From sequence record PP430150.1: a DNA stretch of 6,424 bases, one strand, 5' to 3'. Every line of letters begins with the position of its first letter. The first letter of the stretch is position 1. This stretch comes from Enterobacteria phage FfLilac. Below, piece after piece: positions 1-6,424 of the stretch. A program made the position numbers and the translations under genes. Below the pieces are notes generated by a model. The model had not been told where the DNA came from. It searched no databases and saw only the letters and a program-made list of their open reading frames with translations.

Positions 1-78
1 CGGCGCATTAAGCGCGGCGGGTGTGGTGGTTACGCGCAGCGTGACCGCTACACTTGCCAGCGCCCTAGCGCCCGCTCC
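1..78 (+). other. Morphogenetic packaging signal (PS, hairpin A) of an Ff phage, immediately downstream of the gene IV stop
   Basis: GC-rich imperfect inverted repeat (gcgcattaagcgcggcgggtgtggtggttacgcgcagcg / cgctacacttgccagcgccctagcgcc) that I recognise as the f1/M13 sequence following gene IV. Boundaries approximate. Confidence 0.7.
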
Positions 79-79
79 T

Positions 80-240
80 TTCGCTTTCTTCCCTTCCTTT
101 CTCGCCACGTTCGCCGGCTTTCCCCGTCAAGCTCTAAATCGGGGGCTCCCTTTAGGGTTCCGATTTAGTGCTTTACGGCACCTCGACCCCAAAAAACTTG
201 ATTTGGGTGATGGTTCACGTAGTGGGCCATCGCCCTGATA
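80..240 (+). promoter_or_regulatory. Minus-strand (complementary strand) origin region, where host RNA polymerase makes the primer (hairpins B/C)
   Basis: Sequence matches my recollection of the f1 origin segment (ctttcttcccttcctttctcgccacgttcgccggctttccccgtcaagctctaaatcgggggctccctttagggttccgatttagtgctttacggcacctcgacc). Position between PS and the plus origin fits Ff architecture. Boundaries approximate. Confidence 0.55.
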
Positions 241-261
241 GACGGTTTTTCGCCCTTTGCC

Positions 262-420
262 GTTGGAGTCCAACGTTCTTTAATATTGGACTCTTGTTCC
301 AAACTGGAACAACACTCACAACTAACTCGGCCTATTCTTTTGATTTATAAGGATTTTTGTCATTTTCTGCTTATTGGTTAAAAAATAAGCTGATTTAACA
401 AATATTTAACGCGAAATTTA
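262..420 (+). promoter_or_regulatory. Plus-strand origin: nicking hairpin (stem 266-273/286-293), pII-binding hairpin (stem 295-301/307-313), then the A/T-rich enhancer (domain B)
   Basis: Perfect 8-bp inverted repeat gagtccaa...ttggactc around the loop cgttctttaata, which contains the conserved ctttaat/a nick context (predicted nick between 284 and 285). Second inverted repeat ttgttcc-aaact-ggaacaa. Downstream A/T-rich tract up to ~420. Confidence 0.7.
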
Positions 421-434
421 ACAAAACATTAACG

Positions 435-463
435 TTTACAATTTAAATATTTGCTTATACAAT
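435..463 (+). promoter_or_regulatory. Putative sigma70 promoter for gene II (-35 tttaca 435-440, 17-bp spacer, -10 tacaat 458-463)
   Basis: Near-consensus hexamers with 17-bp spacing, ~45 nt upstream of the gene II ATG at 507. Position agrees with the known gene II promoter in the Ff intergenic region. Confidence 0.55.
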
Positions 464-506
464 CATCCTGTTTTTGGGGCTTTTCTGATTATCAACCGGG
501 GTACAT

Positions 507-1739
507 ATGATTGACATGCTAGTTTTACGATTACCGTTCATCGATTCTCTTGTTTGCTCCAGACTTTCAGGTAATGACCTGATAGCCTTTGTAGACCTCT
601 CAAAAATAGCTACCCTCTCCGGCATGAATTTATCAGCTAGAACGGTTGAATATCATATTGACGGTGATTTGACTGTCTCCGGCCTTTCTCACCCGTTTGA
701 ATCTTTGCCTACTCATTACTCCGGCATTGCATTTAAAATATATGAGGGTTCTAAAAATTTTTATCCCTGCGTTGAAATTAAGGCTTCACCAGCAAAAGTA
801 TTACAGGGTCATAATGTTTTTGGTACAACCGATTTAGCTTTATGCTCTGAGGCTTTATTGCTTAATTTTGCCAACTCTCTGCCTTGCCTGTATGATTTAT
901 TGGATGTTAACGCTACTACCATTAGTAGAATTGATGCCACCTTTTCAGCTCGCGCCCCAAATGAAAATATAGCTAAACAGGTTATTGACCATTTGCGAAA
1001 TGTATCTAATGGTCAAACTAAATCTACTCGTTCGCAGAATTGGGAATCAACTGTTACATGGAATGAAACTTCCAGACACCGTACTTTAGTTGCATATTTA
1101 AAACATGTTGAACTACAGCACCAGATTCAGCAATTAAGCTCTAAGCCATCCGCAAAAATGACCTCTTATCAAAAGGAGCAATTAAAGGTACTGTCTAATC
1201 CTGACCTGTTGGAATTTGCTTCCGGTCTGGTTCGCTTTGAGGCTCGAATTAAAACCCGATATTTGAAGTCTTTCGGGCTTCCTCTTAATCTTTTTGATGC
1301 AATTCGCTTTGCTTCTGACTATAATAGACAGGGTAAAGACCTTATTTTTGATTTATGGTCATTCTCGTTTTCTGAACTGTTTAAAGCATTTGAGGGGGAT
1401 TCAATGAATATTTATGACGATTCCGCAGTATTGGACGCTATCCAGTCTAAACATTTTACAATTACCCCCTCTGGCAAAACTTCCTTTGCAAAAGCCTCTC
1501 GCTATTTTGGTTTCTATCGTCGTCTGGTTAATGAGGGTTATGATGCTGTTGCTCTTACCATGCCTCGTAATTCCTTTTGGCGTTATGTATCTGCATTAGT
1601 TGAGTGCGGTATTCCTAAATCTCAATTGATGAATCTTTCCACCTGTAATAATGTTGTTCCGTTAGTTCGTTTTATTAACGTAGATTTTTTCTCCCAACGT
1701 CCTGACTGGTATAATGAGCCAGTTCTTAAAATCGCATAA
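507..1739 (+). CDS. II: Gene II protein, rolling-circle replication initiator (site-specific nickase), 410 aa
   Basis: ORF 507..1739 (ATG to TAA). Translation MIDMLVLRLPFIDSLVCSRLSGNDLIAFVDLSKIATLSGMNLSAR... is recognisably Ff pII, with correct length and position after the origin. Confidence 0.95.
   Translation: MIDMLVLRLPFIDSLVCSRLSGNDLIAFVDLSKIATLSGMNLSARTVEYHIDGDLTVSGLSHPFESLPTHYSGIAFKIYEGSKNFYPCVEIKASPAKVLQGHNVFGTTDLALCSEALLLNFANSLPCLYDLLDVNATTISRIDATFSARAPNENIAKQVIDHLRNVSNGQTKSTRSQNWESTVTWNETSRHRTLVAYLKHVELQHQIQQLSSKPSAKMTSYQKEQLKVLSNPDLLEFASGLVRFEARIKTRYLKSFGLPLNLFDAIRFASDYNRQGKDLIFDLWSFSFSELFKAFEGDSMNIYDDSAVLDAIQSKHFTITPSGKTSFAKASRYFGFYRRLVNEGYDAVALTMPRNSFWRYVSALVECGIPKSQLMNLSTCNNVVPLVRFINVDFFSQRPDWYNEPVLKIA
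1404..1739 (+). CDS. X: Gene X protein, the in-frame C-terminal 111 aa of pII made from an internal start
   Basis: Internal ATG at 1404-1406 (codon 300 of gene II) begins MNIYDDSAVLDAIQ... and is in frame to the gene II stop. Established Ff nested gene. Confidence 0.8.
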   Translation: MNIYDDSAVLDAIQSKHFTITPSGKTSFAKASRYFGFYRRLVNEGYDAVALTMPRNSFWRYVSALVECGIPKSQLMNLSTCNNVVPLVRFINVDFFSQRPDWYNEPVLKIA

Positions 1740-2486: not shown

Positions 2487-3776
2487 GTGAAAAAATTATT
2501 ATTCGCAATTCCTTTAGTTGTTCCTTTCTATTCTCACTCCGCTGAAACTGTTGAAAGTTGTTTAGCAAAACCTCATACAGAAAATTCATTTACTAACGTC
2601 TGGAAAGACGACAAAACTTTAGATCGTTACGCTAACTATGAGGGCTGTCTGTGGAATGCTACAGGCGTTGTGGTTTGTACTGGTGACGAAACTCAGTGTT
2701 ACGGTACATGGGTTCCTATTGGGCTTGCTATCCCTGAAAATGAGGGTGGTGGCTCTGAGGGTGGCGGTTCTGAGGGTGGCGGTTCTGAGGGTGGCGGTAC
2801 TAAACCTCCTGAGTACGGTGATACACCTATTCCGGGCTATACTTATATCAACCCTCTTGACGGCACTTATCCGCCTGGTACTGAGCAAAACCCCGCTAAT
2901 CCTAATCCTTCTCTTGAGGAGTCTCAGCCTCTTAATACTTTCATGTTTCAGAATAATAGGTTCCGAAATAGGCAGGGTGCATTAACTGTTTATACGGGCA
3001 CTGTTACTCAAGGCACTGACCCCGTTAAAACTTATTACCAGTACACTCCTGTATCATCAAAAGCCATGTATGAAGCTTACTGGAACGGTAAATTCAGAGA
3101 CTGCGCTTTCCATTCTGGCTTTAATGAGGATCCATTCGTTTGTGAATATCAAGGCCAATCGTCTGACCTGCCTCAACCTCCTGTCAATACTGGCGGCGGC
3201 TCTGGTGGTGGTTCTGGTGGCGGCTCTGAGGGTGGCGGCTCTGAGGGTGGCGGCTCTGAGGGTGGCGGTTCTGAGGGTGGCGGTTCTGAGGGTGGCGGTT
3301 CCGGTGGCGGCTCCGGTTCCGGTGATTTTGATTATGAAAAAATGGCAAACGCTAATAAGGGGGCTATGACCGAAAATGCCGATGAAAACGCGCTACAGTC
3401 TGACGCTAAAGGCAAACTTGATTCTGTCGCTACTGATTACGGTGCTGCTATCGATGGTTTCATTGGTGACGTTTCCGGCCTTGCTAATGGTAATGGTGCT
3501 ACTGGTGATTTTGCTGGCTCTAATTCCCAAATGGCTCAAGTTGGTGACGGTGATAATTCACCTTTAATGAATAATTTCCGTCAATATTTACCTTCTTTGC
3601 CTCAGTCGGTTGAATGTCGCCCTTATGTCTTTGGCGCTGGTAAACCATATGAATTTTCTATTGATTGTGACAAAATAAACTTATTCCGTGGTGTCTTTGC
3701 GTTTCTTTTATACGTTGCTACCTTTATGTATGTATTTTCGACGTTTGCTAACATACTGCGTAATAAGGAGTCTTAA
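2487..3776 (+). CDS. III: Gene III protein, minor coat and adsorption protein (N1-linker-N2-linker-CT), GTG start, 429 aa
   Basis: The ORF track opens at a TTG (2457). The authentic start is GTG at 2487-2489, preceded by ggag (2473-2476), giving signal peptide [18 protein letters not shown] and mature [17 protein letters not shown]... Two glycine-rich linkers and the C-terminal membrane anchor ...[26 protein letters not shown] are present. Stop TAA at 3774-3776. Confidence 0.93.
2742..2801 (+). repeat. Four tandem 15-bp units (gagggtggYggYWct) encoding the first glycine-rich linker of pIII (EGGGS x3 + EGGGT)
   Basis: Direct read: gagggtggtggctct / gagggtggcggttct / gagggtggcggttct / gagggtggcggtact, in frame with gene III. 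Confidence 0.9.
3192..3323 (+). repeat. Tandem 12- and 15-bp units encoding the second glycine-rich linker of pIII (GGGS x3, EGGGS x5, GGGS, GSG)
   Basis: Direct read: three 12-bp GGGS units (3192-3227), five 15-bp gagggtggcggYtcY units (3228-3242, 3243-3257, 3258-3272, 3273-3287, 3288-3302), then ggtggcggctcc ggttccggt. Confidence 0.9.
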
Positions 3777-5166: not shown

Positions 5167-6424
5167 TTTTGTTTTCTTGATGTTTGTTTCATCATCTTCT
5201 TTTGCTCAAGTAATTGAAATGAATAATTCGCCTCTGCGCGATTTCGTGACTTGGTATTCAAAGCAAACAGGTGAATCTGTTATTGTCTCACCTGATGTTA
5301 AAGGTACAGTCACTGTATATTCCTCTGACGTTAAGCCTGAAAATTTACGCAATTTCTTTATCTCTGTTTTACGTGCTAATAATTTTGATATGGTTGGCTC
5401 TAATCCTTCCATAATTCAGAAATATAACCCAAATAGTCAGGATTATATTGATGAATTGCCATCATCTGATATTCAGGAATATGATGATAATTCCGCTCCT
5501 TCTGGTGGTTTCTTTGTTCCGCAAAATGATAATGTTACTCAAACATTTAAAATTAATAACGTTCGCGCAAAGGATTTAATAAGGGTTGTAGAATTGTTTG
5601 TTAAATCTAATACATCTAAATCCTCAAATGTATTATCTGTTGATGGTTCTAACTTATTAGTAGTTAGCGCCCCTAAAGATATTTTAGATAATCTTCCGCA
5701 ATTTCTTTCTACTGTTGATTTGCCAACTGACCAGATATTGATTGAAGGATTAATTTTCGAGGTTCAGCAAGGTGATGCTTTAGATTTTTCCTTTGCTGCT
5801 GGCTCTCAGCGCGGCACTGTTGCTGGTGGTGTTAATACTGACCGTCTAACCTCTGTTTTATCTTCTGCGGGTGGTTCGTTCGGTATTTTTAACGGCGATG
5901 TTTTAGGGCTGTCAGTTCGCGCATTAAAGACTAATAGCCATTCAAAAATATTGTCTGTGCCTCGTATTCTTACGCTTTCAGGTCAGAAGGGTTCTATTTC
6001 TGTTGGCCAGAATGTCCCTTTTATTACTGGTCGTGTAACTGGTGAATCTGCCAATGTAAATAATCCATTTCAGACAATTGAGCGTCAAAATGTTGGTATT
6101 TCTATGAGTGTTTTTCCCGTTGCAATGGCTGGCGGTAATATTGTTCTGGATATTACTAGCAAGGCCGATAGTTTGAGTTCTTCTACTCAGGCAAGTGATG
6201 TTATTACTAATCAAAGAAGTATTGCGACAACGGTTAATTTGCGTGATGGTCAGACTCTTTTACTCGGTGGCCTCACTGATTATAAAAACACTTCTCAGGA
6301 TTCTGGCGTACCGTTCCTGTCTAAAATCCCTTTAATCGGCCTCCTGTTTAGCTCCCGCTCTGATTCTAACGAGGAAAGCACGTTATACGTGCTCGTCAAA
6401 GCAACCATAGTACGCGCCCTGTAG
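5144..6424 (+). CDS. IV: Gene IV protein, outer-membrane secretin for phage export, 426 aa precursor
   Basis: The ORF track opens at an upstream in-frame ATG (5105). The authentic start is ATG 5144-5146, preceded by aaagg, giving signal peptide MKLLNVINFVFLMFVSSSSFA and mature QVIEMNNSPLRDF... The start overlaps the end of gene I by 23 nt. TAG stop at 6422-6424 is the last codon of the window. Confidence 0.93.
   Translation: MKLLNVINFVFLMFVSSSSFAQVIEMNNSPLRDFVTWYSKQTGESVIVSPDVKGTVTVYSSDVKPENLRNFFISVLRANNFDMVGSNPSIIQKYNPNSQDYIDELPSSDIQEYDDNSAPSGGFFVPQNDNVTQTFKINNVRAKDLIRVVELFVKSNTSKSSNVLSVDGSNLLVVSAPKDILDNLPQFLSTVDLPTDQILIEGLIFEVQQGDALDFSFAAGSQRGTVAGGVNTDRLTSVLSSAGGSFGIFNGDVLGLSVRALKTNSHSKILSVPRILTLSGQKGSISVGQNVPFITGRVTGESANVNNPFQTIERQNVGISMSVFPVAMAGGNIVLDITSKADSLSSSTQASDVITNQRSIATTVNLRDGQTLLLGGLTDYKNTSQDSGVPFLSKIPLIGLLFSSRSDSNEESTLYVLVKATIVRAL

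What the first reader, a model, noticed from the sequence alone, without database searches (positions are those of the whole stretch)
262..294. Plus-origin nicking hairpin has a variant stem and loop but keeps perfect pairing
Read directly, the hairpin is gagtccaa / cgttctttaata / ttggactc: a perfect 8-bp stem with a 12-nt loop. My recollection of f1/M13 is gagtccac / gttctttaata / gtggactc. Here the innermost stem pair would be A:T instead of C:G, with one extra loop base and the base just 3' of the nick context changed (aatattgg versus aatagtgg). Changing both arms together preserves the structure, which points to selection on the hairpin rather than random error. The change sits next to the pII cleavage site.
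Basis: partly seen in the sequence, partly recalled or inferred. Interest (0 to 1): 0.5.

Follow-up and report, generated by a model that had tools for sequence, protein, structure and literature searches.

The report
Compensated variant of Ff origin hairpin
This is the normal start site for DNA copying of a wild M13/fd-type filamentous phage, in which two small changes on opposite sides of a well-known DNA hairpin cancel each other so that the hairpin still closes; it is a tidy natural example of structure being conserved, not a new kind of element.

Summary
The window is a complete 6424-nt Ff-type inovirus genome. It is closest to FfIris, Copypasta and fd, at 64-67 differences. Window 266-293 is its plus-strand origin nicking hairpin: GAGTCCAA / CGTTCTTT^AATA / TTGGACTC, a perfect 8-bp stem with a 12-nt loop.

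Every other Ff genome examined has GAGTCCAC / GTTCTTTAATA / GTGGACTC. So do f1-ori vectors, and IKe and phasyl-type plasmids keep the same GTGGACTC 3' arm and closing C:G pair. The window differs by two lineage-private events: a 1-nt A insertion at 272/273 and G>T at 286 (+5 from the nick). Either change alone costs about 2.2 kcal/mol; together they recover about 1.3.

Among about 12 private mutations in this genome, the expected number of such compensated pairs by chance is 6e-5 to 2e-4. Across 17 distinct origins of the pII family, the five inner stem pairs are always Watson-Crick. The only 3'-arm changes are two independent both-sided swaps, one in this window and one in a metagenomic relative.

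The nick context and the spacing to the pII-binding repeats are unchanged, and pII is intact. I conclude it is a functional Ff origin carrying a compensated allele, which supports selection on stem pairing. Templated (quasi-palindrome) mutation is a live rival for how the changes arose. Interest is modest.

The parts
266..273 (+). 5' arm of the nicking hairpin, GAGTCCAA (canonical Ff: GAGTCCAC)
   Evidence: (I5)
272..273 (+). Lineage-private 1-nt insertion: AA where all relatives have a single A. It lies at -9/-10 from the nick, inside core-origin domain A but 5' of the pII recognition sequence.
   Evidence: PMC5405960 for domain limits
274..285 (+). 12-nt loop CGTTCTTTAATA holding the conserved pII cleavage context GTTCTTT^AATA. 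The inferred nick is between T281 and A282.
   Evidence: cleavage site from PMC5405960 and PMC11962056
286..293 (+). 3' arm TTGGACTC (canonical GTGGACTC). T286 is the private G>T change at +5, inside the pII footprint.
261..275 (+). Overlapping palindrome CGTTGGA-G-TCCAACG. The A insertion makes it perfect. It is a possible template for the insertion and a competing fold (-5.1 kcal/mol).
   Evidence: (I7)
289..317 (+). Second inverted repeat GACTCTTGTTCCA/TGGAACAACACTC. By homology it is the pII-binding repeats. It is identical to fd/f1 and at unchanged distance from the nick.
   Evidence: (I2); binding role from literature (PMC5405960 footprint 5774-5813 = window 275-314)
269..320 (+). Core origin (domain A), mapped from M13 5769-5819
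   Evidence: mapping; PMC5405960
321..411 (+). Replication enhancer (domain B), mapped from M13 5820 to about 5910. It is of the fd type here.
   Evidence: alignment; PMC5405960
507..1739 (+). Gene II, the cognate initiator pII (410 aa). It has Phage_CRI and G2P_X_C domains and keeps Tyr197. Private substitutions are S347A and S395F.

Best explanation
Window 266-293 is the plus-strand (viral-strand) rolling-circle origin hairpin of a wild Ff-type filamentous phage.

**How it works (inferred by homology).** pII binds the downstream repeats (about 289-330) on supercoiled replicative-form DNA. It cuts the + strand between T281 and A282 in the hairpin loop. Host enzymes extend the 3' end. After one round pII cuts and reseals at the same site.

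**What is different here.** This lineage carries a two-step, structure-preserving allele: an A inserted at the inner end of the 5' arm (272/273) and G>T at the first base of the 3' arm (286, +5). Together these swap the closing C:G pair for A:T and add one loop base on the 5' side of the nick. Unchanged are:
- the block from -9 to +4 (ACGTTCTTT^AATA);
- the nick-to-3'-arm distance;
- the nick-to-binding-repeat distance.

Initiation should therefore proceed as in f1.

**Why the pairing was kept.** The most likely reason is selection on the stem itself. From memory of Dotto et al. 1982/84 (JMB 162:335; JMB 172:507), the 5' arm is dispensable for nicking but lies in the part of domain A needed for termination. 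There the displaced single strand can fold.

**Shown versus inferred.** Shown: the sequence, its uniqueness, its energetics, the non-random co-occurrence and the family-wide covariation. Inferred: pII cleavage at 281/282, viability, and the termination role of the stem.
For: - **Identity.** It is a full Ff genome with all genes intact. The intergenic region is collinear with fd/f1. The fd record marks the origin at the homologous base. pII has Pfam Phage_CRI and G2P_X_C domains and Tyr197.
- **Variant unique and private.** This is shown. No other instance turned up in IMG/VR, metagenome or genome scans for +5 variants or 5'-arm variants.
- **Compensation energetics.** Ancestor -7.4, single steps -5.2 and -5.1, double -6.5 kcal/mol.
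- **Not chance.** The expected number is 6e-5 to 2e-4.
- **Family covariation.** In 17 distinct origins, pairs +5 to +9 are always Watson-Crick. There are two independent both-sided swaps (window +5; L093 +8) and no one-sided break. Outer pairs +10 to +12 are lost by 5'-arm-only changes in lineages that keep a perfect stem of at least 7 bp.
- **Probable viability.** The window starts at the same base as PP430147-151 and gives a 6425-column alignment. That matches the five plaque-isolated F-dependent inoviruses in bioRxiv 10.1101/2023.03.19.532758.
Against: - There is only one lineage with this allele, and neither intermediate was observed. The order of the events and the fitness of the intermediates are therefore unknown.
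- Both changes are what templated quasi-palindrome correction predicts, which needs no selection for the stem.
- The stem is slightly weaker than the ancestral one. A new competing fold lowers its predicted occupancy from 0.96 to 0.79.
- Classical work, as I recall it, showed that the 5' arm is not needed for nicking or initiation. Any structural role is therefore confined to termination or is modest.
- The origin's activity was not measured. That the window is a plaque-forming isolate is an inference from coordinates, not a database match.
Confidence: 0.62

Rival explanations
1. Mutational bias rather than selection. Both changes arose by template switching at quasi-palindromes. First the A insertion was copied from the upstream arm CGTTGGA (261-267), making CGTTGGA-G-TCCAACG perfect. 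Then G>T was copied from the altered 5' arm, making hairpin D perfect again. On this reading the apparent compensation is a by-product of how the mutations were made, and the stem need not be under selection.
For: - The insertion converts an imperfect 7/6 palindrome into a perfect 7/7 one (I7).
- T286 is the exact complement of the new A273 (I5).
- None of the other nine private substitutions lengthens an inverted repeat.
- Template switching is documented to create and maintain perfect hairpin stems (PMC8794818) and to be a hotspot mechanism in E. coli (PMC7202029).
- ssDNA phage replication offers ample opportunity for fold-back.
Against: - No single switch event explains both changes. They need two different donors, and the reverse complement of 272-286 is absent nearby.
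- Given an insertion at that slot, the chance that the base is the palindrome-perfecting one is already about 1/3 to 1/4. The statistical support is therefore weak.
- The family-wide pattern shows pairing is conserved over long divergence, with an independent swap in L093. Mutation bias alone does not explain that.
- This rival is compatible with selection rather than exclusive of it.
Confidence: 0.22
2. The palindrome is read as a symmetric double-stranded protein-binding site, not as a hairpin. Both half-sites changed together because a symmetric protein contact has to be kept, as seems to happen at the downstream pII-binding inverted repeat.
For: - The downstream inverted repeat shows symmetric changes between lineages: GTTCCA..TGGAAC in Ff, GTTGCA..TGCAAC in IKe, GTCTCA..TGAGAC in L093, and GTCCCA..TGGGA in L096.
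- T286 lies inside the pII footprint (PMC5405960).
Against: - The 5' arm lies outside the reported footprint and recognition sequence (5774-5813 and from 5777; PMC5405960).
- The 5' arm varies on its own in outer pairs without any change in the 3' arm.
- The stem slides inward in IKe-like phages (11-bp stem, 5-nt loop). This fits a length or structure requirement, not symmetric sequence reading.
- In the window the two arms are one base further apart, which would disturb a rigid symmetric contact.
Confidence: 0.08
3. Artefact or neutral coincidence. The two differences are sequencing or assembly errors at an inverted repeat, or two unrelated neutral mutations.
For: - Only one sequence carries them.
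- Inverted repeats can cause fold-back artefacts in library preparation.
- One vector-derived f1 origin in a Proteus plasmid record shows an isolated extra A in the loop that looks like a read error.
Against: - Expected chance co-occurrence is 6e-5 to 2e-4.
- The rest of the genome is clean, with all ten reading frames intact and about 11 other ordinary private changes.
- An error would have to be made twice and in complementary form.
Confidence: 0.05

Closest known systems
f1/M13/fd plus-strand origin, core domain A with the nicking hairpin (M13 5766-5792; nick 5780/5781)
   Same: - Same genomic position, and the same cleavage context GTTCTTT^AATA.
- Seven of the eight stem pairs are the same.
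- Identical downstream pII-binding repeats at identical spacing, and an fd-type enhancer.
- Cognate pII 98-99% identical.
   Different: - The closing pair is A:T instead of C:G.
- The loop is 12 nt rather than 11, with the extra base 5' of the nick.
- Position +5 is T, not G.
- The stem is 0.9 kcal/mol weaker, and a new competing upstream palindrome exists.
IKe viral-strand origin stem-loop (X02139 6554-6580) and IKe-like uncultured phages (L091, L095, L096, L098-L105)
   Same: The nick motif TTT^AAT lies in or at the loop. The 3' arm is ...GTGGACTC. Pairs +5 to +9 are identical to Ff. A second palindrome follows.
   Different: The stem is extended inward to 8-11 bp with a 5-9 nt loop. Outer pairs are often lost through 5'-arm changes. 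pII is only 56-64% identical. None has the +5 change.
Uncultured inovirus contig Logan SRR23874048_3046 (L093; pII 66% identical)
   Same: It has the same 11-nt loop GTTCTTTAATA. It also has an independent both-sided C:G>A:T swap in the stem, GAGTACAC/GTGTACTC at +8. This is the same kind of compensated allele.
   Different: A different pair is swapped, there is no indel, and the stem is 9 bp. The downstream binding palindrome is also different (GTCTCA..TGAGAC).
Phasyl-type arp mini-plasmid origins (NZ_CP149236.1, NZ_CP151201.1)
   Same: AGTCCAC / GCTCTTTAATA / GTGGACT followed by TTGTTCCA..TGGAAC. The origin core is homologous to Ff.
   Different: The stem is 7 bp because the outer pair is broken on the 5' side. 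These are plasmid replicons with an arp gene rather than a phage pII. The closing C:G pair is kept.

Membership tests
Ff (f1/fd/M13) plus-strand replication origin, core domain A | Located in the large intergenic region between gene IV and gene II, downstream of the packaging signal and the minus-strand origin | tested here: met
   Gene IV ends at 6424 and gene II starts at 507. Window 1-506 is collinear with the f1/fd intergenic region.
Ff (f1/fd/M13) plus-strand replication origin, core domain A | pII cleavage context GTTCTTT^AATA | tested here: met
   Window 275-285 is GTTCTTTAATA, identical to all Ff genomes. The motif is as given in PMC11962056.
Ff (f1/fd/M13) plus-strand replication origin, core domain A | Palindrome or hairpin enclosing the nick site | tested here: met
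   Perfect 8-bp stem 266-273/286-293. It is the MFE fold at -6.5 kcal/mol with z = -3.5.
Ff (f1/fd/M13) plus-strand replication origin, core domain A | Canonical stem sequence GAGTCCAC/GTGGACTC | tested here: not met
   The innermost pair is A:T, not C:G, and the loop is one base longer. This is an allelic difference. The other seven pairs are canonical.
Ff (f1/fd/M13) plus-strand replication origin, core domain A | Downstream inverted plus direct repeats bound by pII, at fixed distance 3' of the nick | tested here: met
   Window 289-330 is identical to fd, and the distance from the nick is unchanged because the indel lies 5' of the nick.
Ff (f1/fd/M13) plus-strand replication origin, core domain A | Cognate initiator pII (Phage_CRI and G2P_X_C domains, catalytic Tyr197) encoded in cis | tested here: met
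   Pfam E-values 2.4e-77 and 5.5e-34. Y197 is present.
Ff (f1/fd/M13) plus-strand replication origin, core domain A | pII-dependent nicking of supercoiled DNA, and initiation and termination of rolling-circle synthesis | not testable with these tools
   Needs phagemid rescue, two-origin plasmid or in vitro nicking assays. Viability is only inferred from the likely identity with a plaque isolate.
Structure under selection (covarying stem) | Pairs maintained across relatives through both-sided changes, without one-sided breaks | tested here: met
   In 17 distinct origins, pairs +5 to +9 are 100% Watson-Crick, with two independent both-sided swaps and no one-sided break. Outer pairs are not conserved.
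Quasi-palindrome template-switch mutation | The new sequence is the exact reverse complement of a nearby arm | tested here: met
   269-275 is the reverse complement of 261-267 only after the insertion. 286-293 is the reverse complement of 266-273 only after G>T (I7 and I5).
Quasi-palindrome template-switch mutation | One switch event accounts for the whole mutation cluster | tested here: not met
   Two different donor arms are needed. No nearby reverse-complement donor spans 272-286 (reasoned).

The most novel reading that the evidence does not exclude
The altered origin (+5 T, shifted 5' arm) and the lineage-private pII/pX substitutions S347A and S395F may form a co-adapted initiator-origin pair with shifted specificity. 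Such a natural, partly orthogonal Ff replicon might escape interference from, or fail to cross-replicate with, canonical f1 origins and phagemids. Separately, the allele is a natural test of whether the termination half of domain A (-12 to -5) is read as structure rather than as sequence.
Probability: 0.07. Interest if true: 0.6.

Novelty: new member of a known kind. Interest (0 to 1): 0.3.

Why it matters
The f1 origin is among the most used DNA elements in biotechnology: phagemids, ssDNA scaffold production, nanorods. Its nicking hairpin is invariant in every laboratory strain.

Classical deletion work left it unclear whether the hairpin matters as a structure. The 5' arm is dispensable for nicking, yet it lies in the region needed for termination.

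A wild allele that changes both arms in a complementary way points to a structural role for the inner stem. So does a second independent compensated swap in a relative, and so do the five inner pairs that never break across 17 origins. Together these give comparative evidence that the inner stem is selected as a structure.

The allele also shows that position +5, inside the pII footprint, tolerates G>T in nature, provided the genome is a viable isolate, which is inferred rather than shown. It further defines three constructs (the double and the two single-step alleles) that would separate initiation from termination requirements. This is a refinement of a well-understood system, not a new mechanism.

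Tried and rejected
- **Searches for the same or intermediate alleles elsewhere.**
  - The IMG/VR pattern allowing any inner pair found three contigs, all canonical.
  - The +5-not-G pattern found one hit in IMG/VR and 45 in metagenome contigs. All are chance matches with no origin context.
  - The 5'-arm-variant pattern found 0 hits in IMG/VR and 22 in genome contigs, all chance.
  - Plasmids and E. coli genomes hold only canonical f1 origins plus phasyl-type origins.
- **Exact-protein look-ups.** The window's pII and pV, to find sister genomes, are not on record.
- **I2-2, If1 and Erwinia PEar phages as comparators.** They lack this origin type. PEar shares only the minus-origin hairpins.
- **Other private substitutions.** I checked whether they also perfect palindromes, which would point to a template-switch-prone lineage. 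None does.
- **A single template-switch event explaining both changes.** Rejected, because two donors are required.
- **Primary literature on the -12 termination boundary and on +5 contacts.** The Dotto/Horiuchi papers and PMC148397 are not held. Only secondary summaries were available (PMC5405960, PMC11962056, PMC4403547, PMC10334589, PMC11765958). Statements about the 5' arm being termination-specific therefore rest partly on my own recollection.
- **The P0001 contig (L092).** It is an M13mp-type lacZ vector, not a wild genome.

Full report
**1. What the window is**

Megablast against the phage collection shows that the 6424-nt window is a complete Ff-type inovirus genome. It matches FfIris over 100% of its length at 99.0%. 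It matches fd and Copypasta at 99.0% over the parts their records align, and f1 and M13 at about 97%.

All ten canonical reading frames are intact. The window starts at the first base after the gene IV stop codon, exactly as do PP430147, PP430148, PP430149 and PP430151. A whole-genome alignment with those genomes has 6425 columns.

The paper that describes those genomes reports five new F-plasmid-dependent inoviruses isolated as plaques, and an alignment of 6425 sites (bioRxiv 10.1101/2023.03.19.532758). I therefore infer that the window is the fifth isolate, which is absent from the searchable collection. This is an inference, not a database hit. It matters because it implies the genome is viable.

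**2. Checking the observation**

The sequence at 255-300 reads CTTTGCCGTTG GAGTCCAA CGTTCTTTAATA TTGGACTC TTGTTCC. The repeat scan reports arms 266-273 and 286-293, 8 nt, 100% complementary, 12 nt apart (I5).

Alignment of the intergenic region with f1, M13, fd, Copypasta, FfIris, FfAmethyst, FfViolet and FfLavender shows that all eight have GAGTCCAC-GTTCTTTAATA-GTGGACTC. The window differs by an extra A at 272/273 and T for G at 286.

The same canonical sequence is found in:
- three IMG/VR contigs;
- laboratory-evolved f1 isolates;
- f1-origin vector remnants in plasmid and E. coli records.

**3. Is it more than chance?**

Comparison with six relatives identifies about 13 window-private events:
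- the A insertion at 272/273;
- G286T;
- substitutions at 872, 1545-1546, 1690, 1816, 3074, 3189, 5115, 5311 and 5911;
- a 15-nt insertion in gene III.

The two hairpin events are the only private changes in the 506-nt intergenic region. The genome holds 7 to 33 perfect hairpins, depending on the minimum stem (8 down to 6 bp). With those, the expected number of complementary double hits on one pair among 12 random events is 6e-5 to 2e-4. Independent neutral mutation is therefore rejected.

**4. Energetics**

Folded as single-stranded DNA, the free energies are:

| Sequence | kcal/mol |
|---|---|
| FfIris-like ancestor | -7.4 |
| Insertion only | -5.2 |
| G>T only | -5.1 |
| Observed double | -6.5 |

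The second change thus recovers about 1.3-1.4 of the 2.2-2.3 kcal/mol lost by the first.

In a 146-nt context the hairpin is still part of the minimum-energy fold. The insertion also makes the overlapping palindrome CGTTGGA-G-TCCAACG (261-275) perfect (I7). That creates a competitor of -5.1 kcal/mol and lowers the predicted probability of the closing pair from 0.96 to 0.79.

**5. Placement on the functional map**

For M13, PMC5405960 gives these coordinates:
- nick between 5780T and 5781A;
- pII footprint 5774-5813;
- pII recognition sequence from 5777 to somewhere between 5791 and 5809;
- domain A (core origin) 5769-5819, needed for initiation and termination and very sensitive to insertions and deletions.

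Mapping with the one-base offset gives:

| Feature | Window position |
|---|---|
| Nick | T281 / A282 |
| Footprint | 275-314 |
| Domain A | 269-320 |
| Substituted base | +5 (M13 G5785) |
| Inserted base | -9/-10 |

The inserted base is inside domain A but 5' of the footprint. The block from -9 to +4 (ACGTTCTTT^AATA) is unchanged. The distance from the nick to the 3' arm is unchanged. The downstream inverted repeat (289-317, I2) and the rest of the fd-type core are also unchanged.

From my own knowledge of Dotto, Horiuchi and Zinder 1982/1984 (primary papers not held), nicking and initiation need only about -4 on the 5' side, whereas termination needs about -12. The shifted part of the 5' arm therefore falls in the termination-specific segment.

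pII is intact. It matches Pfam Phage_CRI and G2P_X_C and keeps Tyr197, the residue that PMC5405960 says is linked to the 5' end. It carries two private substitutions, S347A and S395F, in the pX-shared C-terminal part.

**6. Comparative test of structure**

IKe has GAGTCCACTAT-GTTTA-ATAGTGGACTC, annotated as the viral-strand origin stem-loop. Phasyl-type arp plasmids have AGTCCAC-GCTCTTTAATA-GTGGACT.

A protein search with pII returned many relatives at 56-66% identity on genome-length contigs. Ten look-ups returned 14 loci. L092 is an M13mp-type lacZ vector, and L094's contig ends 246 nt upstream of gene II without showing the origin. The other 12 loci reduce to eight distinct origin sequences, seven of them new and one shared with L091. 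L091, an IKe-like IMG/VR contig, came from the IMG/VR scan for pII relatives.

I tabulated each pair by the position of its 3' partner relative to the nick, in 17 origins representing 14 distinct hairpins:
- Pairs +5 to +9 are Watson-Crick in every origin.
- The 3' arm (+5 to +12) differs from GTGGACTC in only two origins.
- Both of those carry the complementary change in the 5' arm. The window has C:G>A:T at +5. Logan contig SRR23874048_3046 (L093, pII 66% identical) has GAGTACAC/GTGTACTC, C:G>A:T at +8, with the same loop GTTCTTTAATA.
- The outer pairs +10 to +12 are broken by 5'-arm-only changes in three lineages (L091/L098/L100, L095, phasyl). In the IKe-like ones, extra inner pairs keep the stem at 8 bp or more.

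This is the standard signature of a stem selected for pairing, with a minimum length of about 7-8 bp. The sample is small, with two covariation events.

**7. How the changes may have arisen**

The insertion is exactly the base that perfects the upstream quasi-palindrome. The substitution is exactly the base that re-perfects the nicking hairpin. Template switching at quasi-palindromes is a known mutational mechanism that can create and maintain perfect stems (PMC8794818; PMC7202029).

No single switch explains both changes, because they need different donors. Given an insertion at that slot, the identity of the base is only a 1-in-3 or 1-in-4 coincidence. None of the other private substitutions lengthens an inverted repeat. 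I treat templated mutation as a plausible contributor to the origin of the allele. It is a rival to a purely selective account, but it does not explain the family-wide conservation of pairing.

**8. Other rivals**

A symmetric duplex binding site is suggested by the symmetric changes in the downstream pII-binding palindrome between lineages. Two observations argue against it. The 5' arm lies outside the reported footprint. It also varies on its own in outer pairs.

A sequencing artefact cannot be excluded without reads, but it would need two complementary errors in an otherwise ordinary genome.

**9. Uniqueness**

No second instance of the allele, and no single-step intermediate, was found in any collection searched:
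- the phage records;
- IMG/VR;
- metagenome contigs, scanned only for +5 variants;
- GTDB genomes, scanned only for 5'-arm variants;
- plasmids and E. coli genomes.

The window's pII and pV are not in the large protein collection. Natural Ff genomes are few in these collections, about a dozen distinct origins, so absence of intermediates is weak evidence.

**10. Verdict**

The element is the ordinary Ff plus-strand origin hairpin carrying a new, compensated allele. It works like the f1 origin and passes every sequence-level membership test except the exact canonical stem sequence.

It adds a small but real piece of comparative evidence that the inner stem of the nicking hairpin is selected as a structure. 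It also shows that +5 tolerates G>T, if the genome is the viable isolate I infer it to be. It is not a new kind of system. Interest is 0.3.

Noticed in passing
window 3216-3230 (gene III, 2487-3776): Private in-frame 15-nt insertion that adds one extra GGGSE unit to the glycine-rich linker of pIII (429 aa versus 424 in FfIris). It accounts for 15 of the 16 extra bases of this genome.
   Followed up: partly
window 1545-1546, 1690, 1816: An adjacent double substitution AG>GC gives pII/pX S347A, C1690T gives S395F, and G1816T gives pV Q22H. All are private to this lineage. The pII/pX changes lie in the C-terminal G2P_X_C domain, and a link to the origin allele is untested.
   Followed up: partly
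L084 (NZ_CP151201.1, Klebsiella variicola plasmid p14_KVTMDU, 1452 bp): This is a phasyl-type arp mini-replicon. Its Ff-like origin is followed by about 150 nt identical to the fd-type enhancer (domain B), and then by a second partial origin copy (AATAGTGGACTCTTTTTCCATATTGGAACA). It looks like a phage-plasmid recombinant.
   Followed up: no
L013, L093, L096, L102, L104 versus window 293-311: The downstream pII-binding palindrome changes symmetrically between lineages: GTTCCA..TGGAAC, GTTGCA..TGCAAC, GTCTCA..TGAGAC and GTCCCA..TGGGA. This suggests co-evolution of half-sites with the initiator.
   Followed up: partly
L001 (FfIris) position about 303; L004 (FfLavender) 313-330: FfIris has A>G in the 3-nt spacer of the binding palindrome (AAACT>AAGCT). 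FfLavender has a strongly diverged third-repeat region. Natural Ff origins are therefore less uniform downstream of the hairpin than in it.
   Followed up: no
L086 (NZ_CP135988.1, Proteus mirabilis plasmid pRM2023): A vector-type f1 origin with one extra A in the hairpin loop (TTTAATAAGTGGACTC). It is probably a read or assembly error or a vector mutation. It is an isolated loop-length change without any stem change.
   Followed up: no
window 113, 147, 190-192 region (alignment columns): fd and FfLavender share substitutions in the minus-origin and packaging hairpin region (for example C>T near 113 and G>A near 147) that the window, FfIris and f1 lack. Whether these are also paired changes was not examined.
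   Followed up: no
L092 (Logan SRR9869761 contig): The representative of the 109-member Ff pII cluster sits on an M13mp-type vector contig, with a lacZ fragment upstream of gene II. Much of the apparent Ff diversity in public assemblies is therefore laboratory vector.
   Followed up: no
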